A DNA stretch of 64,000 nt from Nitrosopumilus sp. (GCA_965205675.1 OZ242186.1:1440001-1504000); one strand, 5' to 3'; numbered from the stretch's first letter, positions 26,834-40,460 are shown. Notes: generated from the sequence alone by a model not told the origin. Program-made: numbers and translations.

Positions 26834-29800
26834 TCATTTTGCAATTCTAATGACGCGCTCTTCTATGAGAGTCTCAATGAGTTCGGTGAATTCCATATCA
26901 GTGAGATTGCCATCAGTGTAGTTACCTACATCATTAAGCAGCCACTGTGGATAGGTATCGATATCTTGCAGGCTTTTTGATTTTTCCCAGTCCTCATAGA
27001 CAATATAGTGGTTATCAATTAGATAGTCAATGGAATTAAAGAAGAATATGTCACGTGCAGGACTTCCATTCCACAATTTTAGATCAGACTTTATCCACAA
27101 AGGTATAGGATCAGTATTTTTTTGAACAGTCTTATCTGCTATGGGTCTTGGATCATCTTCTATTGCATTTAGAATATCAAGTGAACTCTGCTGTTCGCTA
27201 GTATACCCTGTACGATGATGGTATTTCTTTTCAACAAAGTCGTCACTTAGCGTTATGGTCTGAGTAAATGTGTCTCGTTTGTCTTTTGCTGTAACTGCAA
27301 AAGAGTCTGCATCAGAATTAATTGTGGCAGAGTATACGAGGTGCTGTTTCTCTGCTTCATTTGCAGAGGACTGTGGTGACTGCTCAGATGTCAGAGACAA
27401 TGCTGCCAGGTGCACGCCTGCATCAGTGCTGACAGAGACAGATGCTGGTCCGCATGTAGAGAGCAGTTCCACATTGACAGTGCTAGTTTCCCTGTCATAT
27501 CCTATACTGAATATTCGAAGCGAGATGCCCATTCCAAATCCCTTAGAGTCACAACTGGATTTGTTGATATCTTTGTGTAAGAATTCAGCGTGGGACTCTT
27601 CAGATACTGCCACGTTGATTCTGCCGCTACCGCCGCTAGAGGATGTGGGGGGTGGGGGAAGAGTGCCAGTACTAGTAATGAGGTTATTCTCTGAGGATAT
27701 AATGTTATTTTGTGCAGTGTCTCGTATGGCACCTGCTGCAATATCCAGATGCAAGTCATCACTGTTACTATTAGCGATGTAAGAGATTATCTCTTCTCGC
27801 TGCTGCTCAGTTACAGTTATTTCAAGTGTATCAGAGTTGGGACTAGCATGTATGGCACCAGCAAGGGATACAGACATGCTGCTACCTGTAGTGCCAGATA
27901 TTGTAAAGCTATCCACGGTGATATTATCAGGGTCTATTGTTTCTGAAAAGGTTACAGTTAGCAGACCTGTTACTTTGTGTATGACACCTGAGACAAAGGT
28001 TGGCTCAATCTGATCATCGACCATTTCAAGTGGGTTGTCTTCTGATGCTGCAATGCCATTTTCTGAAGTATCCTGTACGGCACCTTCTGCAATGTCTAGA
28101 TGCAGGTTATCACTAGTACCGGTGTAACCTATTACTCGCTGTCGTTGTTGCTCATTTAGAGTTATTGTAATGGTATGAGCAGAAATAGGGTCGATGGCAG
28201 ATGCTGTACCTGCAAGGGATACAGGTATGCTGTTACCTACAGTGTCAGATATTGTAAAGTTACCTACTATGATACTATCAGGGGATATTGTCTCTGAGAA
28301 ATTTACAGTCAGTACACCTGTGCCCTCTTGTACTACAGCAGAGACAAAGGTTGGCAGAATTGTATCACCAACACTTGTAATAGGATCATCTTCAGAAGCT
28401 GCAACATCATTTTCTGAAGTGTCCTGTACGGCGCCTTCTGCAATGTCTAGATGCAAGTTTGTGTCATTGTTATTAACAGTACCAGTGTAAGCTATTACTT
28501 GCTGTCGTTGTGTTTCAGTCAGAGTTATTGTAAGAGTATCAGTAGAGGTAGAATCAATGTCGGGTGTTGCACCTGCAAGGGACACTGGTGGTAGTGCGTT
28601 GCCAGTTACAGTATCAGATATTGTAAAGCTATCCACTGTAACATCAGAGTCAATTGCCTCTGAGAAGGTTACAGAGAGTACACCTGTGCCCTCTTGTACT
28701 ACAGCAGAAACAAATGTTGGCAGAATTGTATCAACAACCATTGTAATCTCGTTATCCACAGAAGCTGCAATGTTATTCTGTACAGTGTCTCGCACGGCAC
28801 CTGCTGCAATGTCAAGATGCAAGTTACCACCAGTGCCGGTGTAACCTATTACTTGCTGTCGCTGTGCCTCAGTCAGGGTTATTGTAATGGTGTCAGGGGA
28901 GCCAGGGTCAACGGCGGTCGCTAGACCTGCAAGGGATACGGGTGGTGATGCGTTGCTAGATATGGTATCAGATATTGTAAATCCGTCCACTGTGATATGA
29001 CTAGGGTCAATTGTCTCTGAGAAATTTACAGTCAGTACACCTGTGCCCTCTTGCATCACACCAGAGACAAATGTTGGCAGAATTGTATCAACAACCATTG
29101 TAATCTCGTTATCCACAGAAGCTGCAATGTTATTCTGTACAGTGTCTCGCACGGCACCTGCTGCAATGTCAAGATGCAAGTTACCACCAGTGCCGGTGTA
29201 ACCTATTACTTGCTGTCGCTGTGCCTCAGTCAGGGTTATTGTAATGGTGTCAGGGGAGCCAGGGTCAACGGCGGTCGCTAGACCTGCAAGGGATACGGGT
29301 GGTGATGCGTTGCTAGATATGGTATCAGATATTGTAAATCCGTTCACTGTGATATGACTAGGGTCAATTGTCTCTGAGAAATTTACAGTCAGTACACCTG
29401 TGCCCTCTTGCATCACACCAGAGACAAATGTTGGCAGAATTGTATCAACAACCATTGTAATCTCGTTATCCACAGAAGCTACAATGTTATTCTGTGCAGT
29501 GTCTCGCACGGCACCTGCTGCAATGTCAAGATGCAAGTTACCACCAGTGCCGGTGTAACCTATTACTTGCTGTCGCTGTGCCTCAGTCAGGGTTATTGTA
29601 ATGGTGTCAGGGGAGCCAGGGTCAACGGCGGTCGCTAGACCTGCAAGGGATACGGGTGGTGATGCGTTGCTAGATATGGTATCAGATATTGTAAATCCGT
29701 CCACTGTGATATGACTAGGGTCAATTGTCTCTGAGAAATTTACAGTCAGTACACCTGTGCCCTCTTGCATCACACCAGAGACAAATGTTGGCGGGATTGC

Positions 29801-32800
29801 ATCATTAGTTCTTATAATAAGATTATCCTCAGAAGCTGCAATGTTATTCTGTACAGTGTCTCGCACGGCACCTGCTGCAATGTCAAGATGCAATGAACCG
29901 GTATAAGGTAATATTAGCTGTCGCTGTGCCTCAGTCAGGGTTATTGTAAGGGTATCAGGAGCGCCAAAAATAATGGCGGGCGTTGCACCTGCAAGGGATA
30001 CGGAGAGACGTGCCTCAATGCCGCTCTCCAAATCATCAGTTATTGTAAATCTTTCCACCATGATATTACTAGGGTCAATTGTCTCTGAGAAGGTTACAAA
30101 GAGGACGCCTGCGCCCTCTTGTAGCACACCAAAGACAAATGTTGGCAGAATTGTATCAACAACCATTGTAATCTCGTTATCCACAGAAGCTGCAATGTTA
30201 TTCTGTACAGTGTCTCGCACGGCACCTGCTGCAATGTCAAGATGCAAGTTACCACCAGTGCCGGTGTAACCTATTACTTGCTGTCGCTGTGCCTCAGTCA
30301 GGGTTATTGTAATGGTGTCAGGGGAGCCAGGGTCAACGGCGGTCGCTAGACCTGCAAGGGATACGGGTGGTGATGCGTTGCTAGATATGGTATCAGATAT
30401 TGTAAATCTTTCCACCATGATATTACTAGGGTCAATTGTCTCTGAGAAATTTACAGTCAGTACACCTGTGCCCTCTTGCATCACACCAGAGACAAATGTT
30501 GGCAGAATTGTATCAACAACCATTGTAATCTCGTTATCCACAGAAGCTACAATGTTATTCTGTGCAGTGTCTCGCACGGCACCTGCTGCAATGTCAAGAT
30601 GCAAGTTACCACCAGTGCCGGTGTAACCTATTACTTGCTGTCGCTGTGCCTCAGTCAGGGTTATTGTAATGGTGTCAGGGGAGCCAGGGTCAACGGCGGT
30701 CGCTAGACCTGCAAGGGATACGGGTGGTGATGCGTTGCTAGATATGGTATCAGATATTGTAAATCCGTTCACTGTGATATGACTAGGGTCAATTGTCTCT
30801 GAGAAATTTACAGTCAGTACACCTGTGCCCTCTTGCATCACACCAGAGACAAATGTTGGCAGAATTGTATCAACAACCATTGTAATCTCGTTATCCACAG
30901 AAGCTGCAATGTTATTCTGTACAGTGTCTCGCACGGCACCTGCTGCAATGTCAAGATGCAAGTTACCACCAGTGCCGGTGTAACCTATTACTTGCTGTCG
31001 CTGTGCCTCAGTCAGGGTTATTGTAATGGTGTCAGGGGAGCCAGGGTCAACGGCGGTCGCTAGACCTGCAAGGGATACGGGTGGTGATGCGTTGCTAGAT
31101 ATGGTATCAGATATTGTAAATCTTTCCACCATGATATTACTAGGGTCAATTGTCTCTGAGAAATTTACAGTCAGTACACCTGTGCCCTCTTGCATCACAC
31201 CAGAGACAAATGTTGGCAGAATTGTATCAACAACCATTGTAATCTCGTTATCCACAGAAGCTACAATGTTATTCTGTGCAGTGTCTCGCACGGCACCTGC
31301 TGCAATGTCAAGATGCAAGTTACCACCAGTGCCGGTGTAACCTATTACTTGCTGTCGCTGTGCCTCAGTCAGGGTTATTGTAATGGTGTCAGGGGAGCCA
31401 GGGTCAACGGCGGTCGCTAGACCTGCAAGGGATACGGGTGGTGATGCGTTGCTAGATATGGTATCAGATATTGTAAATCCGTTCACTGTGATATGACTAG
31501 GGTCAATTGTCTCTGAGAAATTTACAGTCAGTACACCTGTGCCCTCTTGCATCACACCAGAGACAAATGTTGGAGCTGTAGTGTCAAGGGTTACAGTAAC
31601 AGGATCAGAGAGTGCAGACTTATTACCTGCGGTATCAGTAGCTATAACAGTCAATTCGTTATTGCCTTGGACTAGCGTAAATGAGTCAAATGACCAAGTA
31701 CCGTCAGATGCAGCTGTTGTGCTTCTACCAGGTACTTCATTAGAGTTTCTTAATAACTGGACTGTGGAGCCAGGCTCAGCAGTACCTGAAATGTCAATTG
31801 ACTCTGTGTTGACAGTTGAAGTAGATGGCGACGTAATGATTGGTATAATATTCACAGCTACGGAGATGGTCTGAGATACAGTACTTTGTCCATCAGATAC
31901 AATAACATCAAAGGTGTGTGTACCGGCTTGTAATTCAGTTGGAGTCCATGAGAATGCGCCTGTGTTACTATTGATGGTAGCACCTTCAGGTTCATCATTC
32001 AGAGAATATACAAGTACATCAGCATCATCAGCGTCACTGGCTGATACAATAAAGGTTAGCGGTATATTGGCAATTGCTGATTGCGGAGTTGTAATGGGAC
32101 TGATTACCGGCACTGCATTGAGATCTCCCACAGTTAGCGTAAAGCTATCAGATGCAGAGTCGTCAGAATCTGACCCACTGACTATAAAATTAAATTCTTT
32201 GAGAAACTCAGAATCACTAGTAATTACATCAAATGGAGGATTAGATATAATCTGATCACCATTAATGGTCAACCAATCAGGAACTGCTTCGTTATCAGTT
32301 GTAGTTAATGTAAATGTTGGATTTGTAAAACCAGTGTGTGAGATATTAATAATGGACTGGATACCTTCAAATGAAAAAGAATCTTCTACAAATACAAATG
32401 GTGATACAATATCCACAGCTACGGAGATGGTCTGAGATACAGTACTTTGTCCATCAGATACAAAAACATCAAAGGTGTGTGTACCGGCTTGTAATTCAGT
32501 TGGAGTCCATGAGAATGCGCCTGTGTTACTATTGATGGTAGCACCTTCAGGTTCATCATTCAGAGAATATACAAGTACATCAGCATCATCAGCGTCACTG
32601 GCTGATACAATAAAGGTTAGCGGTATATTGGCAATTGCTGATTGCGGAGTTGTAATGGGACTGATTACCGGCACTGCATTGAGATCTCCCACAGTTAGCG
32701 TAAAGCTATCAGATGCAGAGTCGTCAGAATCTGACCCACTGACTATAAAATTAAATTCTTTGAGAAACTCAGAATCACTAGTAATTACATCAAATGGAGG

Positions 32801-33325
32801 ATTAGATATAATCTGATCACCATTAATGGTCAACCAATCAGGAACTGCTTCGTTATCAGTTGTAGTTAATGTAAATGTTGGATTTGTAAAACCAGTGTGT
32901 GAGATATTAATAATGGACTGGATACCTTCAAATGAAAAAGAATCTTCTACAAATACAAATGGTGATACAATATCCACAGCTACGGAGATGGTCTGAGATA
33001 CAGTACTTTGTCCATCAGATACAAAAACATCAAAGGTGTGTGTACCGGCTTGTAATTCAGTTGGAGTCCATGAGAATGCGCCTGTGTTACTATTGATGGT
33101 AGCACCTTCAGGTTCATCATTCAGAGAATATACAAGTACATCAGCATCAGCGTCACTGGCTGATACAATAAAGGTTAGCGGTATATTGGCAATTGCTGAT
33201 TGCGGAGTTGTAATGGGACTGATTACCGGCGCAGTATTCACCTGAGCAAGAACGTTGTTGACAGGAACTAACGCTAAAACAAAAATCAGTATTGCAGAGT
33301 ATAATATTAGTCTTGTAGAAATCAT
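26834..33325 (-). CDS. Giant secreted/surface protein with cadherin-like/putative-Ig and bacterial Ig-like repeats, 2163 aa
   Basis: Signal peptide; 3 PEGATI..TG.FSWTP domains; one GTAEPGSTV...TDTAGN Ig domain; 11 units of ~119 aa; Pro/Ser/Gly linker; C-terminal IP.WIK-type domain as in nitrosopumilid surface proteins. Confidence 0.85.
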   Translation of the reverse strand: MISTRLILYSAILIFVLALVPVNNVLAQVNTAPVISPITTPQSAIANIPLTFIVSASDADADVLVYSLNDEPEGATINSNTGAFSWTPTELQAGTHTFDVFVSDGQSTVSQTISVAVDIVSPFVFVEDSFSFEGIQSIINISHTGFTNPTFTLTTTDNEAVPDWLTINGDQIISNPPFDVITSDSEFLKEFNFIVSGSDSDDSASDSFTLTVGDLNAVPVISPITTPQSAIANIPLTFIVSASDADDADVLVYSLNDEPEGATINSNTGAFSWTPTELQAGTHTFDVFVSDGQSTVSQTISVAVDIVSPFVFVEDSFSFEGIQSIINISHTGFTNPTFTLTTTDNEAVPDWLTINGDQIISNPPFDVITSDSEFLKEFNFIVSGSDSDDSASDSFTLTVGDLNAVPVISPITTPQSAIANIPLTFIVSASDADDADVLVYSLNDEPEGATINSNTGAFSWTPTELQAGTHTFDVIVSDGQSTVSQTISVAVNIIPIITSPSTSTVNTESIDISGTAEPGSTVQLLRNSNEVPGRSTTAASDGTWSFDSFTLVQGNNELTVIATDTAGNKSALSDPVTVTLDTTAPTFVSGVMQEGTGVLTVNFSETIDPSHITVNGFTISDTISSNASPPVSLAGLATAVDPGSPDTITITLTEAQRQQVIGYTGTGGNLHLDIAAGAVRDTAQNNIVASVDNEITMVVDTILPTFVSGVMQEGTGVLTVNFSETIDPSNIMVERFTISDTISSNASPPVSLAGLATAVDPGSPDTITITLTEAQRQQVIGYTGTGGNLHLDIAAGAVRDTVQNNIAASVDNEITMVVDTILPTFVSGVMQEGTGVLTVNFSETIDPSHITVNGFTISDTISSNASPPVSLAGLATAVDPGSPDTITITLTEAQRQQVIGYTGTGGNLHLDIAAGAVRDTAQNNIVASVDNEITMVVDTILPTFVSGVMQEGTGVLTVNFSETIDPSNIMVERFTISDTISSNASPPVSLAGLATAVDPGSPDTITITLTEAQRQQVIGYTGTGGNLHLDIAAGAVRDTVQNNIAASVDNEITMVVDTILPTFVFGVLQEGAGVLFVTFSETIDPSNIMVERFTITDDLESGIEARLSVSLAGATPAIIFGAPDTLTITLTEAQRQLILPYTGSLHLDIAAGAVRDTVQNNIAASEDNLIIRTNDAIPPTFVSGVMQEGTGVLTVNFSETIDPSHITVDGFTISDTISSNASPPVSLAGLATAVDPGSPDTITITLTEAQRQQVIGYTGTGGNLHLDIAAGAVRDTAQNNIVASVDNEITMVVDTILPTFVSGVMQEGTGVLTVNFSETIDPSHITVNGFTISDTISSNASPPVSLAGLATAVDPGSPDTITITLTEAQRQQVIGYTGTGGNLHLDIAAGAVRDTVQNNIAASVDNEITMVVDTILPTFVSGVMQEGTGVLTVNFSETIDPSHITVDGFTISDTISSNASPPVSLAGLATAVDPGSPDTITITLTEAQRQQVIGYTGTGGNLHLDIAAGAVRDTVQNNIAASVDNEITMVVDTILPTFVSAVVQEGTGVLSVTFSEAIDSDVTVDSFTISDTVTGNALPPVSLAGATPDIDSTSTDTLTITLTETQRQQVIAYTGTVNNNDTNLHLDIAEGAVQDTSENDVAASEDDPITSVGDTILPTFVSAVVQEGTGVLTVNFSETISPDSIIVGNFTISDTVGNSIPVSLAGTASAIDPISAHTITITLNEQQRQRVIGYTGTSDNLHLDIAEGAVQDTSENGIAASEDNPLEMVDDQIEPTFVSGVIHKVTGLLTVTFSETIDPDNITVDSFTISGTTGSSMSVSLAGAIHASPNSDTLEITVTEQQREEIISYIANSNSDDLHLDIAAGAIRDTAQNNIISSENNLITSTGTLPPPPTSSSGGSGRINVAVSEESHAEFLHKDINKSSCDSKGFGMGISLRIFSIGYDRETSTVNVELLSTCGPASVSVSTDAGVHLAALSLTSEQSPQSSANEAEKQHLVYSATINSDADSFAVTAKDKRDTFTQTITLSDDFVEKKYHHRTGYTSEQQSSLDILNAIEDDPRPIADKTVQKNTDPIPLWIKSDLKLWNGSPARDIFFFNSIDYLIDNHYIVYEDWEKSKSLQDIDTYPQWLLNDVGNYTDGNLTDMEFTELIETLIEERVIRIAK
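27680..31575 (-). repeat. Intragenic ~357-bp tandem repeat, 11 units (7 near-identical)
   Basis: Each unit starts PTFV.....EGTGVL; 357-bp period visible in DNA and in shadow ORFs. Confidence 0.95.
31853..33230 (-). repeat. Intragenic 561-bp tandem repeat, ~2.5 units
   Basis: Near-identical DNA with a 561-bp period; 3-bp indel (DADADV vs DADDADV). Confidence 0.95.
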
Positions 33326-33761: not shown

Positions 33762-35245
33762 GTAACTGTCTAGAGTTTTGAAGTAAAATCTCCAAGATAT
33801 TCTAAAGAATAATCATGAAAGTTTAATCCTCGTAATCTGCATGTCTCCTTTATACTCATCAGTATCTTATGAGAATCAGCACCATGAATGGTTCTATGAC
33901 CGTTTGTAATTTTACGAATTATCACATTTGGTCTGATTGCCCTCTCTGCTGTGTTATTGTGTGAATCAGTTCCAGTAATTAGGAATGTAAAAAGCATTTC
34001 TCTCTCACGTTTCAATCTTTTTACAAACCTGATACAGTTTTTCTCTGTGTATTTTTTTGATATGATGTGATTAATTCTCCTTTCAAGATTCTTTTTTGCA
34101 TGGATTCTTTCTGATTCTGATTTTATTTTTGCCACACCATGAGAGTCATAAATTATTTTCTTGAGATTCTTGGCAAATGGTGCAAATTCTGGTCCGGGAT
34201 TCTTGTGATTAATGGTATCATTAACCTCTCTGAGATAATGGATGTGACATTTCTGGTGAGTGCTTCCAACATGGTTCCATGCAGGGTACGAATCACTTGT
34301 AATGTTGCCATCATATCCCTTGAGAATTCTCTTGGGAACATCCATTGAACGTGATTTGTCAATCTCGTAAATTACAGTCCATTTACTCACAAATGCCCAC
34401 AACCAGTGGTTCTGGCCATCTACCCTCCAACTTGTCTCATCACCATGTATGTTTAGATCTTCTTTTAACTCCACAATCATTGTATCATATCTGCTCCCAA
34501 ATGCTTTTGATACTATTGATACTGCATGATTAATTGCAGATTCTGTAATGTGCAGTGAGAAGAGCATCTGCAAAAGATGAGATATTTTACCATACGATAA
34601 TCCGATAGTTTTTAGTGATGTGATTAGCACCATGAGCCTAATTCCAAACCTTTCATTTGACAGTACAGTGTGAATGTTACCCGAGATTTGTTTTTTGCAG
34701 TTTGTGCAGTATCGTCTAACTATCGTATATTTTGTCACAACTGCTTTTGCAGGAATGATGTCTTCTACTATTCTGGTGTATGAATCAGTTGGTTCTGAGA
34801 GTGATTTGCCACATGTGTTGCACTCTTTTTGGTCAACTGTAATGGCATCATCAATGTGTGCTGTGCATTTCCAAAGACGCACATAATGGATTTTCTTCTT
34901 TTTGGTCAACTGTAATGGCATCATCAATGTGTGCCCGTCTGCTTCTGCTTTTTCTAGGATGTCTTGATGTTTTCTTCTTTTTTGCAGTTTCAGTCTTGTT
35001 TGGTTTTGCTTTGATATTTCTTGCAACAAGTGTAGACACTGTTTGTTTTAGTTCTGCAATTTCTCTGTGTAGTGATTCAATATCTTTGCGTAACTGACGG
35101 TTTTCTTGCTCCAGCGAGTGACATCTGTTACGATAATATTCCAGCTCATCATATACTGACAATTGTATATTGTAATTTGTCACTGATCAGAAAAGATATA
35201 GATAAAAAATATTAAAGAAAGTACTTCAAAACTCTAGACAGTTAC
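33762..35245 (-). mobile_element. IS66 family element, copy 2 (1484 bp), transposase frameshifted by a 73-bp insertion
   Basis: Same 24-bp IRs; 73 bp longer than copies 1 and 3; ORF split into 34851..35183 and 33770..35029. Confidence 0.95.
34824..34934. repeat. Repeat-spacer-repeat unit: 38-bp exact duplication around a 35-bp unique insert
   Basis: TCTTTTTGGTCAACTGTAATGGCATCATCAATGTGTGC at 34824-34861 and 34897-34934; single in the other IS66 copies. Confidence 0.95.
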
Positions 35246-35251
35246 AAAAAA

Positions 35252-35412
35252 TGTTGTATCCTAGAATCGGCTCGTCTCTTATTTCACATCATATTCTTCC
35301 CCTGTCTGCTCATCCATAACACCCTTGTTTCCCTTTTCTGGCATCTTTTTCACATTGCTTTTGCAGGTGTCCTTAGATTGTCCCAGTCAAGTAACATATG
35401 CGGTTTTATATA
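35252..35412 (-). mobile_element. Degenerate IS481 3' remnant
   Basis: Diverged copy of 33438-33600. Confidence 0.7.
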
Positions 35413-35549
35413 ATTACTTGATAATAATAATCAGACAAATAATCGAGATTGATGAGAAGGCCAAGTGGAAAACTATTATTCAAAATACTAGTCTACACAA
35501 GGAAAATTCAATTTGAATAAGATCTGTATTTCATATAACCCCTCGAAGA

Positions 35550-35897
35550 TTACATAGAATCGGATTTCTTTTTACTTTTCTGAATCAAAATTTTCTTTAT
35601 TCTAGAAATTGTAGGATAACTGTAACTCCTCCTACGATAATTTGCAATCATAATTTTCCAATTTTTTAATCTCCATTGAGCTTGTTCGGCAGTAACAGAA
35701 TGAACTTCTTTCTGAATGATACTTTTCCTGCCTACTTTTAGAGTTCCAGCATCTTTTGCAGACCATCTATTTTTTGCAAATTTAAGACCAGAAAGGATCT
35801 CAGACACAGGCATTTCTTTGAAATAGGCTTTCAATCTTTTTAATTCTGCATCAGACGGCTTTTTAGAAATTAGTAATTCGATAGTAGACTTTGCCAC
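35550..35897 (-). CDS. Basic hypothetical protein
   Basis: 115-aa Lys/Arg-rich ORF. Confidence 0.65.
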   Translation of the reverse strand: MAKSTIELLISKKPSDAELKRLKAYFKEMPVSEILSGLKFAKNRWSAKDAGTLKVGRKSIIQKEVHSVTAEQAQWRLKNWKIMIANYRRRSYSYPTISRIKKILIQKSKKKSDSM

Positions 35898-36089
35898 AAT
35901 AAACAGTTCGGGTTATTGCTTAAGAGAATCTTGCTAAAGAATCATTTACTAATTGGTTCTAGTCATGTTTATTTATCAAAAATTGTCATTTTAGGCATGA
36001 GATATGCAATAATCTATGAAAAAATTAATAATTTTGATGTATTGGAGAGTATTGGGATGAGTTGTATGTATGGGAAATTGATATTTGTG

Positions 36090-36403
36090 AAACATTTGAG
36101 CAGGAACTGGTAAAACTAGAGATAAAACACATCATGGCAAGAGTAAACCATCCACAGATAAACGGCAAGCTGGAAAGATTCCACGATGAGATTCAAAGAA
36201 AACAGAAATGGTTTGAGACTGTAGATGAGATGGTCCACTGGTATAACTATATCAAACCACACATGTAACTTGACTGGGATTAATTTTGAGACACCAGCAA
36301 AGACTGCAAGAAAGATGCCAGAGAAAAGAACAAGAGTTGTTGATGAGCAGACAGGAGAAGAGTACGATGCAGAATAAGGGGCGAACTGATTTTGGGAAAT
36401 ATC
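36090..36403 (+). mobile_element. Degenerate IS481 3' remnant
   Basis: ARVNHPQINGKLERFH...YNYIKPHM*; homologous to 33438-33761. Confidence 0.75.
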
Positions 36404-36513
36404 AATTGAAATTCTCAAATATTTCTTTGTAAAGATAATTATTCATTACTTTAGAAATAACAAAAATAATTATTTCCTAGAATGTGTAATTTGATGTACT
36501 TTCCCATCTGCTG

Positions 36514-36691
36514 ATGATTGAAGAGATTTGGAGACAGTGCAAACATGCTAATGTTGAATCAGATTTTTATGAATCTATTCATGAAATGAGGCATACAGTT
36601 ATGGAATATTTTAGAACCCATAAATTTGATTTGAATATGTATCAGTATTTTGCAAGAACAGTGAATTGAAAAGACTTATGATCTGGGGTAT
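36514..36691 (+). mobile_element. 3' remnant of the IS630 element found intact at 42575
   Basis: Near-identical to ~43487-43665, including the right IR. Confidence 0.85.
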
Positions 36692-36740
36692 AAGTATGGT
36701 GAAAATATACTTTTAATAGTTGAATTTAAGATAATTCGTA

Positions 36741-37280
36741 TTGATAGATAAGATTGATGAATTGATAATTTCTGCCCTCTCTCAAAATTCAAAACAAAAA
36801 GTTTTTGAGATTTGGGATTTTTTGAAGGGATTTAATTATGATTTAACAGAAGATGAAATTGAATCAAGAATATCAAAACTTGAAGAAGATAAAATTATTA
36901 AAGGATACACAATAACTGTAGATGCAAAGAAAATTTTACACAAGGTCATACGCGTAGATCTTGTCACGTTTAGGATATCTCAAGCACTTCCAAAAAGAGT
37001 AGATGGATTAAAAAAATATCTCAATGATGCGCCATTTGTTTTATTCTCAGGTAAAACGCGTGGGGGGTATGATTGGATTACAGTAAAATCATTTTTATCA
37101 AACGATATGGCGGATGAAGAAAGTGATATTTATCGAAATTTGTTTGGAGATATTATTCAAACATATGAGGTATATGATTTTGTTCCACAGACAGATGCAT
37201 CAATTTATGCATTAACTTATACAGAAATTGAATATAAAAAATTTCTCAAAGAATGGACACCTCCATTTATTGGATCATAA
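36741..37280 (+). CDS. Lrp/AsnC-family transcriptional regulator
   Basis: DKIDELII..L..NS...RI.KLEE..IIKGYT HTH plus RAM-like domain. Confidence 0.8.
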   Translation: MIDKIDELIISALSQNSKQKVFEIWDFLKGFNYDLTEDEIESRISKLEEDKIIKGYTITVDAKKILHKVIRVDLVTFRISQALPKRVDGLKKYLNDAPFVLFSGKTRGGYDWITVKSFLSNDMADEESDIYRNLFGDIIQTYEVYDFVPQTDASIYALTYTEIEYKKFLKEWTPPFIGS

Positions 37281-37281
37281 A

Positions 37282-38118
37282 TTATAACTTTGTTTTTTTA
37301 AAGTGAATTGTCTCATCTATCATTGAATGGGTTTGTAATCTCAAACTCATCAAAAATTTAATCACCTCTGCTCTTTGTTTTGGATTAATTCCATGTGCAT
37401 CTTCTATCAGGTCATCAATTCTTGAAAGCGTAATTTTTAGAGATAAATGAGTTTTTTTTATCAAATTAAGTGCCTTTGAATTTTTGTTAGTAACTTGATT
37501 GTTATTTTTAATCGTTTTTTTGATGACACGGATTTGTTTTACAGTCATCTTTTTGTTGACTATCTCATCTACTAGATCACTATTTTGTGATCCATTAATT
37601 GAAGTTAATTCCAATGCTTGACTTACACTCAAATCATTTTGAAGGATTTTTTCTTGTATATTATTTGAAAGTTTTAAGAGCTGCATTCGATGAGACACAT
37701 ATTCTTCACTCTTTCCAATTTTTTGAGCTAAATCTCTTACTGCTCCCCATCCGTATTCATTTACATATTTTTGGTAAGCTTCTGCCTCCTCTATCGGATC
37801 CATAGATTTTCTCTGAATGTTTTCAGTTAATTGAATCTCATATGCCTGTTTGTCTGTCAAGTCTCGAATTTTACTTGGAATGAATCTCCAACGTAGGGAT
37901 CTACATGCTACATATCTACGATGTCCTGCAACTACCTCAAACCCATGATCAAGAGGTCTAATTACAATTGGTTGCAATAGCCCATGTGTCTTTATGCTAG
38001 ATTTTAGATTTGCTAGTTCTTGAGAATTTGAAGCTGCCATATACCTGACAGGGGATTTTGATGGTCGAATCATTCGAATTTCAATGGGCTCTACAATTGA
38101 ATTATCAATTATTTCCAT
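37282..38118 (-). CDS. ParB/Spo0J-like protein
   Basis: L..SI..HGLLQPI, VVAGHRR, ENIQR, HTH (LAQKIGKS..YVS). Confidence 0.9.
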   Translation of the reverse strand: MEIIDNSIVEPIEIRMIRPSKSPVRYMAASNSQELANLKSSIKTHGLLQPIVIRPLDHGFEVVAGHRRYVACRSLRWRFIPSKIRDLTDKQAYEIQLTENIQRKSMDPIEEAEAYQKYVNEYGWGAVRDLAQKIGKSEEYVSHRMQLLKLSNNIQEKILQNDLSVSQALELTSINGSQNSDLVDEIVNKKMTVKQIRVIKKTIKNNNQVTNKNSKALNLIKKTHLSLKITLSRIDDLIEDAHGINPKQRAEVIKFLMSLRLQTHSMIDETIHFKKTKL

Positions 38119-38537
38119 TTGGAATCCTCATATTCTAAATTGATAAAATGAAAATAGTATTTAACTTTTAATCAAAAAATTACAATAATTTTTAATTGCT
38201 GTTAAATTAATTTTATAATAACTAAAATTTCATAAAATCATCATATAGCGACGATCAAAAGTTCGTAAACATCTTTACAGTATTTCTAAAGATACAATTT
38301 GCAACATCAATCTTGAATCTTGTCATTCTAAAATATTTTGACACTGTATCATTTATCGTAAACATTGTATAATATTCTGAAACCTGCAACGCATACTTGC
38401 TTATCTTCCAGCATTGTTCTATCATGTTCTTCAAGTACGGCGATCCTTTTGGCAACCATATTAGTTTGACATCTCTATTGTTTGCAAGATATTCTTTTAC
38501 TTTTTTTGATTTGTGAACTGATGCTCAGTATAGCATG

Positions 38538-38632
38538 ATTGCAATCTTGCCATATTTCCAGTGCGACCTTGGAGCATGAAGTAGCTCACGCCAACTTTGA
38601 CAATTGCAATCTTGCCATATTTCCAGTGCGAC
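38538..38632. repeat. Repeat-spacer-repeat unit: 30-bp exact duplication around a 35-bp unique insert
   Basis: ATTGCAATCTTGCCATATTTCCAGTGCGAC at 38538-38567 and 38603-38632. Confidence 0.95.
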
Positions 38633-38939
38633 TCCTTTAGATATTCTACAAATCTTCCAGCATTGAATCTGTCATAAATTTTAAACAGCTGATTGTTATT
38701 TTCCATAATTGTTCCATACTGCCAAACTTTCATGATTGCCTAGGTATGAAAGAAATATTCTCTTGGCAACTGGTGACTGGGTATTTTTTCCTGTCTTTGT
38801 ATCCCTTAGAAAAAATGCCTCATCAGCCATTGCAATGACAAATCCTTCTTTTTTAGGCGTAAAATTCTCTTTCTGATGCGTTGCTGCCAGCTTTTCACAG
38901 CAGATACGCTTGCATGGTGGATGTGATATTTTTGTGCAG

Positions 38940-39081
38940 TAGATGTCTTGCGTAATTATTTCTAGGCGTGAATTTTGCTGCAGGATTTTTCAAATTGGTT
39001 GAGAAATTTGAATTTTCAGGTATGAATTCTGTTAAAATACAAAATTTGAGAAAAAATCTCTATAATTACGCAAGAGGTCTA
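38940..39081. mobile_element. MITE (~140 bp) nested in the IS630 relic
   Basis: IRs TAGA(TG/CC)TCTTGCGTAATTA; same end at 439. Confidence 0.7.
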
Positions 39082-39352
39082 GTTTTTGCAGATATCCTAC
39101 TGGTGCATTATCTTTCTGATGTGAGTAATGTGAAATTTCACTCCAGTGGAATAAGATATTGCTTGCTGTAGCATCACAGGCGTAAACAAAGTTAGCATTG
39201 CCTTTGAGATGATACAGTCCGTTTTCTTCTTTGAAATTGTTCTTGGTCTTCCACTCCTTGGATGGTCGTAGAGGCCATCGATTTCAAAACAATTCACTCA
39301 TTTTCGTACCCAGATTGTGCAGTGTCTTTGCAGTGTGTTCTATTTCCTTACC

Positions 39353-39462
39353 ATCTTTTAGAATCATCAATACTGCCAAGCATTCTTACCTCTAGTCAGA
39401 ATTTCTTGATGTCGTTGGATTAATTATCTTTTAGAATCATCAATACTGCCAAGCATTCTTAC
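39353..39462. repeat. Repeat-spacer-repeat unit: 37-bp exact duplication around a 36-bp unique insert
   Basis: ATCTTTTAGAATCATCAATACTGCCAAGCATTCTTAC at 39353-39389 and 39426-39462. Confidence 0.95.
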
Positions 39463-39650
39463 TGCAACTTTTGAATTTTTTGTAATGCTGCTTTCAAGGG
39501 ATTCTAACTTCCATGTATTTTGTTGGGTTGACTGATCAAAAGGTTTTTTGTTTTGGAATTATTTAGTTCACGAACTTTGTCTTTTCGCTATACAATACTA
39601 TTGATTTGACATGAGGATCATTCTAATACATCATTTCTCAAAGAATCCTG

Positions 39651-40460
39651 ATGAGAAATCCGACTGCAATAATCGGACTGCTGGTTTTGAGCGTAGCATT
39701 GCTTACTATGACAATATACGCAATTGACACTCAGATAATTACTATCGGAGATAAATCATCTGCTGTTCCCATAAAGACCACGTTAATCAATGATTCATTT
39801 AGCACCACACTTGATTCTTGGACATTTCAAGAAAATCCCAACACTGTAGCAAATCAGAGATATTGTAACACGCAAAATACTAATGTATACAGTCTGACTC
39901 ATAATTCAAATCATGATGGTTCTGCACTAATTGATAATTCAAATCATGATGGTTCTGCACTAATTGATAATTCAAATACCTGTTGGTTTGGTACAGTAGG
40001 CGGTGTAAAGTCATTTACAGTTCCAACAGTTCATGATGGCAGCACATTGGAAATGACTCTTGATTATCGAAGTGTTGCCGGTTTAATACCCACAACTGAT
40101 GCGCCTAGTGCCATTTTTACATTGGAAAGGACTCTTGATTATCGAAGTGATGCTGGAGCAATTTCTGCAGGAGTTGGCCATGTAAATAACATGTCTGTCT
40201 TGATTACTGATTCTGATGGTAATATCCTAAAAGAAGAAATATTGTATTCTGGTGCACGCAGCTCGGACTTGAGGGATACTGGCTGGCAAGAAAAGACAAT
40301 TATCGTAAACTCGATAAACGCTACAAAATGCCCATGTGATGTATTTATTTATACTGCGGATTCCTGGCTTGCAGAATGGCAAAAAAAGATTTACTTTGAC
40401 AATGTCAATGTAACACTATCTCATCCAATATCTGATATTGATTACATTTCCTTTCCGTGA
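39651..40460 (+). CDS. Secreted or membrane-anchored protein of unknown function, beta-rich
   Basis: N-terminal hydrophobic helix; ends IYFDNVNV like lectin/jelly-roll domains; carries two in-frame internal duplications. Confidence 0.7.
   Translation: MRNPTAIIGLLVLSVALLTMTIYAIDTQIITIGDKSSAVPIKTTLINDSFSTTLDSWTFQENPNTVANQRYCNTQNTNVYSLTHNSNHDGSALIDNSNHDGSALIDNSNTCWFGTVGGVKSFTVPTVHDGSTLEMTLDYRSVAGLIPTTDAPSAIFTLERTLDYRSDAGAISAGVGHVNNMSVLITDSDGNILKEEILYSGARSSDLRDTGWQEKTIIVNSINATKCPCDVFIYTADSWLAEWQKKIYFDNVNVTLSHPISDIDYISFP
39901..39977 (+). repeat. 33-bp in-frame tandem duplication
   Basis: ATAATTCAAATCATGATGGTTCTGCACTAATTG x2 plus a partial copy (NSNHDGSALID x2). Confidence 0.95.
40044..40156. 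repeat. Older repeat-spacer-repeat unit: 38-bp duplication (3 mismatches) around a 37-bp insert, in frame
   Basis: ACATTGGAAATGACTCTTGATTATCGAAGTGTTGCCGG vs ACATTGGAAAGGACTCTTGATTATCGAAGTGATGCTGG; period 75 bp. Confidence 0.85.

What the first reader, a model, noticed from the sequence alone, without database searches (positions are those of the whole stretch)
34824..40156. Cluster of four ectopic repeat-spacer-repeat insertions with CRISPR-adaptation geometry at non-CRISPR sites
Seen: four unrelated loci within 5.3 kb each have a unique insert flanked by a direct duplication of local sequence. Duplication+insert sizes are 38+35 (34824), 30+35 (38538), 37+36 (39353) and 38+37 (40044), with +/-1 bp boundary ambiguity. 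The duplicated segments are ordinary IS or gene sequence and differ from each other. The inserts have no IRs and I found no other copy in the window. Established: Cas1-Cas2 integrates a fixed-length prespacer and duplicates a repeat-length target; 30 bp and 36-37 bp are common archaeal repeat lengths with ~35-37 bp spacers; off-target integration has been shown experimentally. DDE transposases give much shorter TSDs, and slippage gives no foreign insert. Inference: a promiscuous Cas1-type integrase, possibly two given the two duplication sizes, is writing DNA fragments across this chromosome. That would act as a mutagen that disables IS copies, diversifies proteins and may seed new arrays. No cas gene is in this window.
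Basis: partly seen in the sequence, partly recalled or inferred. Interest (0 to 1): 0.92.

Follow-up and report, generated by a model that had tools for sequence, protein, structure and literature searches.

The report
Stray CRISPR spacer insertions outside arrays
Four spots in this ammonia-oxidising archaeon's chromosome each carry a spacer-sized foreign DNA fragment flanked by a repeat-sized duplication of local sequence, which looks like the CRISPR memory-writing enzyme inserting DNA at the wrong addresses.

Summary
All four repeat-insert-repeat units are at the stated coordinates. They belong to a genome-wide set: 15 of 21 isolated direct-repeat pairs have a period of 64-75 bp.

The genome is a 2.01-Mb Nitrosopumilus. 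It has one intact cas4-cas1-cas2 module beside a 12-repeat array with a 30-nt repeat and 34-37-nt spacers.

The insertions are derived. Removing one repeat plus the insert restores 338/338 identity to at least 9 other IS66 copies, and paralogues, orthologues and a co-occurring strain show empty sites.

The 30+35 class matches the resident system, and its targets resemble the resident repeat (15, 18 and 19 of 30 positions). The commoner 36-38+32-37 class has no cognate array or cas1 in this genome. It matches 36/37-nt-repeat systems of congeners, and three relatives still carry remnants of such systems.

Best reading: fossil off-target Cas1-Cas2 spacer integrations. Which integrase made the 36-class is open: a lost second module, or a second ruler mode of the resident one.

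The process is known from E. coli experiments and Pyrococcus in vitro work. A natural record this dense is new. Interest is moderate to high.

The parts
34824..34861 (.). Event 1, target copy 1 (38 nt as maximal repeat; true duplication probably 36-38)
   Evidence: Lies inside an IS66-family element.
34862..34896 (.). Event 1, 35-nt foreign insert (spacer-like)
   Evidence: No other copy in the genome. No match with up to 3 mismatches in 150 congeners. No exact match in viral or metagenome contigs.
34897..34934 (.). Event 1, target copy 2
   Evidence: 100% identical to copy 1. Deleting 73 bp restores 338/338 identity to at least 9 other IS66 copies.
33762..35245 (-). IS66-family element that hosts event 1. 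Its transposase frame is split into ORFs 33770-35029 and 34851-35183.
   Evidence: Pfam DDE_Tnp_IS66 E 1e-32 and zf-IS66. After removing the 73 bp, the copy differs by 1 mismatch in 1411-1415 bp from its nearest copies. The genome holds at least 23 near full-length copies. Element ends are inferred from the BLAST ranges.
38538..38567 (.). Event 2, target copy 1 (30 nt); a pseudo-repeat of the resident CRISPR repeat
   Evidence: 19 of 30 positions equal the resident repeat, and it ends TTGCAAT against the repeat's TTGAAAT when read on the minus strand. Orientation-free test p<0.0003.
38568..38602 (.). Event 2, 35-nt foreign insert
   Evidence: No other copy in the genome.
38603..38632 (.). Event 2, target copy 2
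   Evidence: 100% identical to copy 1. The paralogue at genome 873553-873881 (91% identity) shows a single 65-bp gap here.
38244..39600 (.). Degraded IS630-like (DDE_3 family) copy that hosts events 2 and 3. Ends are approximate.
   Evidence: Junction-spanning paralogues at 873.4-874.5 kb and elsewhere. Intact relatives of this family carry Pfam DDE_3. No long ORF is left here.
39353..39389 (.). Event 3, target copy 1 (37 nt)
   Evidence: Starts GTAAGAATG when read on the minus strand.
39390..39425 (.). Event 3, 36-nt foreign insert
   Evidence: No other copy in the genome.
39426..39462 (.). Event 3, target copy 2
   Evidence: The paralogue at genome 874160-874485 (98.9% identity over aligned columns) shows a single 73-bp gap here.
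40044..40081 (.). Event 4, target copy 1 (38 nt)
   Evidence: Its right edge is fixed by the protospacer match.
40082..40118 (.). Event 4, 37-nt insert, self-derived or from a close homologue
   Evidence: 33 of 35 bases match genome 1021736-1021770, inside a PALP-family gene.
40119..40156 (.). Event 4, target copy 2 (3 mismatches to copy 1, so an older event)
   Evidence: A contig of a co-occurring strain skips 40080-40154 (75 bp), while another contig spans the event with 0 differences.
39651..40460 (+). 269-aa lineage-specific ORF that carries event 4 as an in-frame 25-codon addition
   Evidence: No Pfam family. No orthologue among the 40 relatives searched.

Best explanation
The four structures are fossil products of complete (full-site) spacer integration by CRISPR Cas1-Cas2 adaptation complexes at non-CRISPR sites.

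Proposed mechanism: a prespacer of about 35 bp held by the integrase attacks the two strands of target DNA at staggered positions. Gap repair then duplicates the stretch between the two attack sites. The result is target copy, foreign insert, target copy.

The 30+35 event at 38538 was most likely written by the genome's resident type I (I-B-like) cas4-cas1-cas2 module, at a sequence that mimics its own repeat.

The three events with 37-38-bp duplications (34824, 39353, 40044) were written by an integrase with a 36-37-bp ruler. By a small margin I think this was a second adaptation module of the 36/37-nt-repeat kind that is common in congeners and is now absent from this assembly.

The insertions persist because they fell in IS copies, pseudogenes and a dispensable ORF within an accessory island.

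Shown: the geometry, the derived state, the presence of the resident module, and the resemblance of the 30-class targets to the repeat. Inferred: catalysis by Cas1-Cas2, and which integrase made the 36-class.

The confidence of 0.8 is for Cas1-Cas2-type integration as the origin of the units. The sub-claim that a second integrase made the 36-class stands at about 0.45.
For: 1. Geometry. Genome-wide there are two classes.
- 30+35/35/37 at three sites, plus a probable 29+35 site at 98271.
- 36-39 + 32-37 at ten sites, with periods of 70-75.
- The resident array has 12 repeats of 30 nt and spacers of 34-37 nt.

2. One intact adaptation module: Cas4 E 3e-53, Cas1 E 3e-93 over the full profile, Cas2 E 1e-16. 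cas3 and cas5 lie beside it.

3. The insertions are derived.
- Clean gaps of 73, 65, 73, 70-72 and 70 bp appear against paralogues.
- Event 1505435 is empty in orthologues of two congeners.
- A co-occurring strain has an empty allele at 40044.

4. The 30-class targets match the resident repeat at 15, 18 and 19 of 30 positions (G1 ... TTGNAAT). The orientation-free test gives p = 0.055, 0.0013 and <0.0003. Pyrococcus furiosus Cas1-Cas2 behaves the same way in vitro, integrating at repeat-like sites with G or C 30 bp apart (PMC6698737, passages read).

5. Without any trimming, 8 of 13 sites have G at one border, and 5 of 13 have GT (sequences). My hand binomial estimates are about p = 0.02 and 0.009.

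6. The inserts are unrelated to each other and to their flanks. Eleven of 13 have no copy in the genome. Two are exact or near-exact genomic fragments of 34 and 35 nt, which is spacer length.

7. Congeners carry arrays with 36- and 37-nt repeats and periods of 70-75. A congener whose only Cas1 hit belongs to that kind of system (G139) has ectopic 37+36 and 36+35 units in the 400 kb scanned.

8. Remnants of such systems sit in three relatives that carry the 30-nt system. G147 has a truncated cas1 and a solitary repeat. G130 has 2 truncated repeats. G142 has 3 repeats. G000 has a possible relic at genome 64870-64906.
Against: - No biochemical link was made.
- The majority class (36-38 bp) has no cognate repeat, array or second cas1/cas2/cas4 in this 99.9%-complete single-contig genome.
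- At least one such event is very young. Its IS66 host differs by 1 base in about 1411 bp from sister copies, and 7 of the 10 events have identical repeat copies. A lost module would therefore have to have been lost very recently, or be extrachromosomal.
- The 36-class targets do not significantly resemble the resident repeat (p 0.24), the first 36/37-nt family (p 0.13 and 0.27) or the second (p 0.009 and 0.53, uncorrected for 6 tests).
- The G-at-border rule needed post-hoc orientation and 1-2 nt of trimming at 4 sites, and it fails at 40044.
- No protospacer was found in viruses or metagenomes for the one insert searched, so no PAM could be derived.
- A Cas1-negative congener (G140) has one 30+42 unit in 400 kb.
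- A congener with only the 30-nt-type Cas1 (G142) has none in 400 kb.
Confidence: 0.8

Rival explanations
1. One integrase, two rulers. The resident 30-nt-repeat Cas1-Cas2(-Cas4) wrote all events. Where the target carries the repeat-end anchor (TTGNAAT, 24-30 bp from a border G), the second attack falls at 30 bp. Where no anchor exists, it falls at a default distance of 36-37 bp.
For: - It is the only cas1/cas2/cas4 in this genome. It is also the only Cas1 hit in G130, which has period 72-74 units at four sites in 800 kb. Two of these have empty orthologous sites in this genome.
- Both classes have similar ages. Most have identical repeat copies, and a few have 1-3 mismatches.
- Both classes fall in the same 5.3-kb hot spot.
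- Insert lengths equal the resident spacer lengths.
- G or GT sits at one border in both classes.
- In Haloarcula hispanica type I-B, the far cut is set by a ruler anchored on a mid-repeat motif, and moving the motif changes the duplication size (PMC4872114, abstract and passages).
Against: - No case is known to me of a bimodal 30/36-37 ruler. The aberrant sizes in H. hispanica were 29-33 bp.
- The second mode would coincide, unexplained, with the repeat lengths of the other CRISPR systems of the genus.
- G130 and G142 carry remnants of 36/37-nt arrays, so 'only the 30-nt system' was not true of their ancestors.
- Site 541166 holds ATTGAAAC ending at position 31, yet it was duplicated over 36 bp.
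Confidence: 0.35
2. A process unrelated to Cas made the 36-38-bp class. Examples would be filler-DNA capture at staggered double-strand breaks made by an unknown nuclease, or template switching during repair. The match to CRISPR geometry would then be coincidental.
For: - No cognate repeat or cas1 for this class exists in the genome.
- The targets are not repeat-like.
- One 30+42 unit sits in a Cas1-negative congener.
- One G130 unit is 33+41, so there the sum (74) is kept better than its two parts.
Against: - Both the duplication (36-38 bp) and the insert (true 34-37 nt, where a protospacer fixes it) are narrowly sized. That implies a protein ruler.
- Recalled knowledge: Cas1-Cas2 is the only enzyme I know of with this geometry.
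- The sizes equal those of real arrays in congeners.
- Such units occur in a congener that has a 36/37-nt system.
- None of this type was found in 400 kb each of two Cas1-negative genomes, apart from the 30+42 case. Those two genomes are 53-54% GC, so they are poor controls.
Confidence: 0.12
3. The structures are artefacts or ancestral sequence. Either they are assembly errors, or the full form is ancestral and the empty copies arose by deletion between the direct repeats.
For: - Only Logan contigs from one study were available (3 runs, 2 samples). This is possibly the sample the assembly came from.
- Contig support was visible for event 40044 only.
Against: - Thirteen independent loci share one geometry but have different sequences.
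- A 248-nt contig spans 40007-40254 with 0 differences.
- For event 34824, 24 other IS66 copies matched the empty form across the junction, and the copy is otherwise 99.93% identical to its nearest copies.
- Orthologues in other species are empty.
- An ancestral full form would require pre-existing perfect 30-38-bp direct repeats around unrelated DNA at each locus.
Confidence: 0.03

Closest known systems
Off-target ('non-canonical') spacer integration and neo-CRISPR formation by E. coli type I-E Cas1-Cas2 (Nivala, Shipman and Church, Nat Microbiol 2018)
   Same: A spacer-sized fragment is inserted at a non-CRISPR chromosomal site, with duplication of a repeat-length stretch of target. It is proposed as a source of new arrays and as a cost of adaptation.
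   Different: I could not read that paper (not held). I know it only from citing passages and from recall. According to those passages it used overproduced Cas1-Cas2 and found only 'circumstantial evidence' in two other species. Here the record is natural: at least 13 events in one genome, with further units in scanned parts of two congeners. It is in a thaumarchaeon, shows two duplication sizes, and one event has an empty allele in a co-occurring strain.
In vitro off-target full-site integration by Pyrococcus furiosus Cas1-Cas2 (PMC6698737)
   Same: A 30-bp repeat system. The off-target sites have G or C 30 bp apart and share positions with the repeat (G1, T2 and others). The three 30-class sites here show the same pattern (G1 ... 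TTGNAAT; 15-19 of 30 matches).
   Different: That work is in vitro, on plasmids, and reports only 30-31-bp spacing. It has no 36-37-bp class.
Anchored molecular ruler of Haloarcula hispanica type I-B adaptation (PMC4872114)
   Same: A type I-B-like system with a 30-bp repeat and cas4-cas1-cas2. The duplication size is set by a motif-anchored ruler and can be aberrant.
   Different: The aberrant sizes reported there are 29-33 bp, at mutated repeats inside an array. They are not 36-38 bp at unrelated sites.
Casposon integration by casposases (Cas1 homologues) of Nitrosopumilus
   Same: A Cas1-family integrase active in the same genus. Multi-copy Cas1 hits with open frames of about 410-420 aa in congeners are probably casposases (the label is my inference from length and copy number).
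   Different: The 14-15-bp target duplication of casposons comes from a passage in PMC4872114. Casposons are kilobase-sized elements, and this genome has no second Cas1 hit.

Membership tests
Product of Cas1-Cas2 full-site spacer integration | The target duplication equals the repeat length of a CRISPR system of the same genome | tested here: inconclusive
   Met for the 30-bp class (event 38538 and two more genome-wide), since the resident repeat is 30 nt. Not met for the 36-38-bp class (events 34824, 39353, 40044 and seven more): the genome has no such array. The length does equal the repeats of congeners.
Product of Cas1-Cas2 full-site spacer integration | The insert has the spacer length of the system and is unrelated to its flanks | tested here: met
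   Apparent insert lengths are 32-37 nt. Protospacers fix two of them at 34 nt and at least 35 nt. Resident spacers are 34-37 nt. Each insert matches only itself in the genome, except for two.
Product of Cas1-Cas2 full-site spacer integration | cas1 and cas2 are present and look intact | tested here: met
   PF01867 matches positions 1-283 of 283, E 1e-93, with no stops. PF09827 E 1e-16. PF01930 E 3e-53.
Product of Cas1-Cas2 full-site spacer integration | The state is derived: an empty site exists in paralogues, orthologues or other strains | tested here: met
   Shown for 8 of 13 events: 1474824, 1478538, 1479353, 541166, 1774762 and 439378 through paralogues, 1505435 through orthologues, and 1480044 through a strain contig. 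No comparator was found for the other 5.
Product of Cas1-Cas2 full-site spacer integration | The target resembles the cognate repeat or leader-repeat junction | tested here: inconclusive
   30-class: p = 0.055, 0.0013 and <0.0003. 36-class: only G or GT at one border; there is no significant likeness to any sampled repeat family.
Product of Cas1-Cas2 full-site spacer integration | Catalysis by the integrase at these sites | not testable with these tools
   Needs an integration assay.
Bona fide CRISPR array | Several copies of one conserved repeat with a leader, giving crRNAs | tested here: not met
   Each locus has its own 'repeat' sequence and a single insert. None grew to three copies. Expression was not tested.
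IS or MITE insertion with target-site duplication | A shared element sequence with terminal inverted repeats and a short duplication | tested here: not met
   The inserts share no sequence with each other. The duplications are 30-38 bp. Inverted repeats were not examined.
Casposon | A casposase gene and a kilobase-sized element | tested here: not met
   The genome has one Cas1 hit, and it is the CRISPR-linked one. The inserts are 32-37 nt.
Tandem duplication or slippage | The inserted material is a copy of adjacent sequence | tested here: not met
   Alignments to empty sites show that only the 30-38 bp are duplicated and the rest is foreign. True tandem cases in the same scan look different.

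The most novel reading that the evidence does not exclude
The resident type I Cas1-Cas2(-Cas4) of these IS-rich Nitrosopumilus has a second integration mode. This mode is sequence-independent, needs little more than a border G, and measures 36-37 bp instead of 30. It would make the adaptation module a chronic endogenous mutagen. In this genome it has already cut an IS66 transposase, hit an IS630-like copy twice, damaged a tRNA-like gene, and added 24-25 in-frame codons to two ORFs. It also produces the raw material from which arrays with a new repeat length could arise.
Probability: 0.3. Interest if true: 0.8.

Novelty: new member of a known kind. Interest (0 to 1): 0.62.

Why it matters
Off-target spacer integration has been shown with overproduced E. 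coli Cas1-Cas2 and in vitro. How often it happens in nature, what it costs, and whether it seeds new arrays are hardly documented.

This genome preserves a dated series of such events, from one in a transposon copy 99.9% identical to its sisters to one with diverged repeats. For 8 of the 13 events an empty-site control is available.

It therefore gives natural in vivo data on target choice: a pseudo-repeat requirement for the 30-bp class, and almost none for the 36-bp class. It also gives data on ruler length, and on self-derived spacers that can survive only outside an array.

It also offers a way to detect past CRISPR systems from their footprints after the cas genes are gone. And it sets up a clear biochemical question: one integrase with two rulers, or two integrases?

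Tried and rejected
Protospacer and PAM hunt.
- The 35-nt insert of event 1 gave no exact match in viral contigs or metagenome contigs, and no match with up to 3 mismatches in 150 congeners.
- The whole 5.3-kb region gave nothing in the phage collection.
- 1,400 spacers taken from arrays of fetched loci were blasted against this genome and all fetched loci. This gave only overlaps between loci of one genome, a mis-called repeat, and one marginal 27/30 hit. No PAM could be derived.
- The other inserts were not searched outside this genome.

Orthologue test for the ORF carrying event 4: no orthologue was found among the 40 relatives searched.

Target likeness. Likeness of the 36-class targets to congeners' 36/37-nt repeats is not significant overall. 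Two sites reach p = 0.01 and 0.04 among 10, which I do not count as support.

Relative scans that found nothing.
- G142, 400 kb: none.
- G129, 400 kb: none.
- These are partial genomes, and G129 and G140 are 53-54% GC, so they are weak controls.
- Three G130 pairs (17723, 742907, 777239) were dropped because they share one repeat and a poly-C insert, so they are a repeat family.

Reads. For events 1 and 2 the 'skips' of 73 and 65 bp are at depths in the thousands, so they come from other IS copies and say nothing about this locus. No listed contig shows whether events 1-3 are spanned.

Other points.
- The Nivala 2018 paper is not held.
- Paper searches for natural off-target events found no report for Thaumarchaeota in the listings returned. 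These are listing-level searches only, and supplements were not consulted.
- The rejected alternatives (transposon TSD, casposon, tandem duplication, assembly artefact) are covered in the membership tests.

Full report
**Observation.**
- 38+35 at 34824.
- 30+35 at 38538.
- 37+36 at 39353.
- 38+37 at 40044. Here the two copies differ at 3 of 38 positions.

The window is G000:C1:1440001-1504000 of a single-contig genome of 2,011,361 bp with 33.7% G+C.

**Size distribution.** I scanned the whole genome for direct repeats with periods of 30-160 bp, using seeds of 12 nt and extended lengths of at least 24 nt. This gave 163 pairs, of which 39 are isolated.
- Of the 21 isolated pairs with a 26-45-nt repeat and an insert of at least 20 nt, 15 have a period of 64-75 bp.
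- The other 6 are tandem or protein-internal repeats, or a single 35+109 case.

Two of the 15 are relatives of the real CRISPR repeat.
- 9807 is a two-repeat mini-array with 28 of 30 identity to the repeat.
- 98271 is a probable 29+35 event at a repeat-like site.

The remaining 13 fall in two classes.
- 30+35, 30+35 and 30+37 at genome positions 439378, 1478538 and 199961.
- Ten with maximal repeats of 36-39 nt and apparent inserts of 32-37 nt, at 541166, 732792, 1247936, 1474824, 1479353, 1480044, 1505435, 1599699, 1704607 and 1774762.

Chance matches at the borders can only lengthen the apparent repeat. At 1774762 the protospacer shows that the true geometry is 36+34.

Four of the 13 events lie within 5.2 kb of each other. 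Under uniform placement p is about 3.5e-5.

**The insertions are derived.**
- Leaving out one repeat plus the insert at 1474824 (window 34824) gives 338 of 338 identity to at least 9 other IS66 copies, and 325 of 325 to more. The alignment shows a single 73-bp gap.
- That IS66 copy otherwise differs from its nearest sisters by 1 mismatch in 1411-1415 bp, so the event is very young.
- Single gaps of 65 and 73 bp appear against paralogues of the IS630-like element that hosts events 2 and 3, at 91% and 98.9% identity.
- Comparable gaps appear for 541166, 1774762 and 439378.
- Event 1505435 is absent from orthologues in two congeners, at 76% and 75% identity with end-to-end alignment.
- Logan contigs of three runs were laid on the region. 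The runs come from two samples of one study, possibly the sample the assembly came from. One contig spans 40007-40254 with no differences. A second contig, which carries many SNPs and so belongs to a co-occurring strain, skips 40080-40154, which is exactly 75 bp.
- No comparator was found for 5 of the 13 events.

**The CRISPR system of the genome.**
- There is one Cas1 hit, at 699655-700497. It is flanked by cas4 and cas2.
- Next come an IS630-like insertion, then cas3 and cas5.
- I found no second Cas1, Cas2 or CRISPR-type Cas4, and no RAMP protein.
- The array at 698254-699002 has 12 repeats of 30 nt and spacers of 34-37 nt.
- Record titles of loci that encode close Cas1 relatives place the lineage in Nitrosopumilus. 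Those loci have large arrays with the same 30-nt repeat next to cas4.
- The repeat reads best as GTTTGAATCG...GGATTGAAAT, with the leader on the cas4 side. This orientation rests on the usual ATTGAAA-type repeat end (recalled) and on degenerate repeats at the far end of the arrays.

**Targets of the 30-bp class.**
- Read in that orientation, the three 30-bp targets start with G and end TTGNAAT.
- They match the repeat at 15, 18 and 19 of 30 positions.
- In a test without a chosen orientation and with shifts allowed, p = 0.055, 0.0013 and <0.0003.
- Pyrococcus furiosus Cas1-Cas2 behaves the same way in vitro. It makes full-site integration at non-CRISPR sites that have G or C 30 bp apart and share positions such as G1 and T2 with the repeat (PMC6698737, passages read).
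- I regard this class as the work of the resident module.

**Targets of the 36-38-bp class.**
- After orienting the sites and trimming 1-2 nt at four of them, 9 of 10 start with G and 8 with GT. This orientation is post hoc.
- Without trimming, 8 of all 13 sites have G at a border and 5 have GT (sequences). My hand binomial estimates are about 0.02 and 0.009.
- Beyond that, these sites do not resemble the resident repeat (p 0.24). They also do not clearly resemble the 36/37-nt repeats of congeners (p 0.13 and 0.27 for one family; 0.009 and 0.53 for the other; six tests).

**Where a 36-37-bp ruler could come from.** A Cas1 search of 151 genomes of the genus, this one included, found hits in 59. 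I fetched ten loci around hits that differ from the resident type.
- One kind has Cas1 open frames of about 333-364 aa, 36- or 37-nt repeats, and periods of 69-78 bp.
- The other kind has open frames of about 557-578 aa, a 36-nt repeat, and periods of 71-80 bp.
- For genomes I did not fetch, I assigned Cas1 types from frame length and score only.
- By that assignment, 4 of the 8 genomes with the resident-type Cas1 also have an intact Cas1 of one of these kinds.
- The closest sampled relative, G147 (Cas1 92% identical), has a 205-aa truncated cas1 of the first kind next to an IS.
- This genome has no such cas gene and no such repeat.

Remnants of arrays of the first kind exist in three relatives.
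- G130 has two truncated repeats about 9 kb from its cas1.
- G142 has three repeats.
- G147 has a solitary repeat near the truncated cas1.

This genome has a possible relic at 64870-64906. Its first 15 nt are exact, and 12 of the remaining 22 match the G142 repeat (p about 0.01).

**Partial scans of congeners.**
- G130 has only the resident-type Cas1. In 800 kb of its 1.94 Mb it has units of 40+33, 38+35 and 33+41, plus one of about 36+36 with an indel. It has no 30+35 unit. Two of these units have empty orthologous sites in this genome.
- G139 has only a 36/37-type Cas1. In 400 kb it has 37+36 and 36+35 units and a two-repeat mini-array. Its two ectopic targets do not resemble its own repeats either. 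Lack of likeness is therefore no argument against that kind of integrase.
- G142 has the resident type plus array remnants. In 400 kb it has none.
- Two Cas1-negative genomes were scanned, 400 kb each: G129 gave none and G140 gave one 30+42 unit. Both have 53-54% G+C, so they are poor controls.

**The inserts.**
- Eleven of 13 have no other copy in the genome.
- The insert of 1774762 is an exact 34-nt piece of a roughly 1.9-kb unit present five times in tandem at 1336605-1345228. That unit encodes a 336-aa ORF with no Pfam family.
- The insert of window event 4 matches a PALP-family enzyme gene at 33 of 35 positions.
- None of the 9 resident-array spacers that were tested matched elsewhere in the genome.
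- Inference: self-derived spacers can persist only where they are not turned into guides. That fits ectopic sites without a leader or a processable repeat.

**Context in the window.**
- Event 1 splits the transposase of an IS66-family element.
- Events 2 and 3 lie in a degraded IS630-like copy.
- Event 4 adds 25 codons in frame to a 269-aa ORF that has no family and no orthologue found.
- The stretch from about 33.7 to 43.7 kb also holds a ParB-like gene, a Fic/DOC gene and an intact IS630-like copy. It lies between a 2163-aa Ig-domain protein gene and the urease genes.
- I read this stretch as an accessory island where insertions are tolerated. That may explain part of the clustering. Whether the site is also a preferred target cannot be told.

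**Mechanism and odds.**
- All 13 units are products of Cas1-Cas2-type full-site integration: 0.8.
- The 36-38-bp class came from a second integrase of the 36/37-nt-repeat kind, now lost or extrachromosomal: about 0.45. In favour: the exact length match, the co-occurrence and decay of such systems in this clade, and the ectopic units in G139. Against: the youth of several events and the complete absence of the module.
- The resident integrase made both classes, using a default ruler when the repeat-end anchor is missing: about 0.35. In favour: it is the only module in G000 and G130, the two classes have similar ages, and they share a hot spot. The anchored ruler of H. hispanica type I-B gives a partial precedent, but only for 29-33 bp (PMC4872114).
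- A process unrelated to Cas, or an artefact, takes the rest.

**Comparison with what is known.**
- Off-target integration by E. coli Cas1-Cas2, and the idea of neo-CRISPR arrays, come from Nivala et al. 2018. I could not read that paper.
[quoted passage not shown] They also say there was circumstantial evidence in two other species (bioRxiv 10.1101/148544).
- My paper searches returned no report of such events in Thaumarchaeota, and none of a natural genome with many events. These covered listings and a few passages only.
- I therefore file this as a new, unusually rich natural member of a known kind of event. The open question it carries, one integrase or two, could make it more.

Noticed in passing
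window 39894-39959: A 33-bp tandem duplication (91% identity) in the same 269-aa ORF as event 4. A contig of the co-occurring strain skips 33 bp here, so it is polymorphic.
   Followed up: partly
window 26834-33325 (-): A 2163-aa ORF with many Ig-like, cadherin-like and He_PIG domains. It has 39-46% G+C against about 34% around it, and lies directly beside the insertion cluster.
   Followed up: no
genome 541136-541274 (outside the window): Ectopic event 541166 lies inside a 72-nt tRNA-like gene that ARAGORN calls tRNA-Phe(GAA). The empty form has a perfect 7-bp acceptor stem. The present form has mismatches at its first two acceptor-stem pairs. ARAGORN calls four other tRNA-Phe genes in the genome.
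   Followed up: partly
genome 701265-702263 (locus L002:15265-16263): An IS630-like (DDE_3) element sits between cas2 and cas3 of the resident CRISPR-cas locus. It belongs to the same family as the degraded copy that hosts window events 2 and 3.
   Followed up: partly
genome 1336605-1345228: Five tandem copies, each about 1.9 kb, carrying a 336-363-aa ORF without a Pfam family. This is the source of the 34-nt insert of event 1774762.
   Followed up: partly
genome 64870-64906: A possible solitary relic of a 37-nt CRISPR repeat of the kind found in congeners. Its first 15 nt are exact to the family motif, and 12 of the other 22 match the G142 repeat.
   Followed up: partly
genome 732642-733050: Event 732792 is flanked on both sides by a repeat of about 132 bp that has roughly 50 copies at 92-100% identity across the genome. 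It looks like a MITE.
   Followed up: no
G140:C1:106319-106420: A perfect 30-nt direct repeat around a 42-nt insert, in a congener that gave no Cas1 hit. Unexplained.
   Followed up: no
genus-wide: Several congeners carry 3-9 Cas1 hits with open frames of about 410-420 aa. These are probably casposases (label inferred). Others carry Cas1 hits of about 340 aa split into two matched stretches.
   Followed up: no
genome 1732495-1732673: A perfect 35-nt direct repeat around a 109-nt unique insert. It fits neither size class.
   Followed up: no
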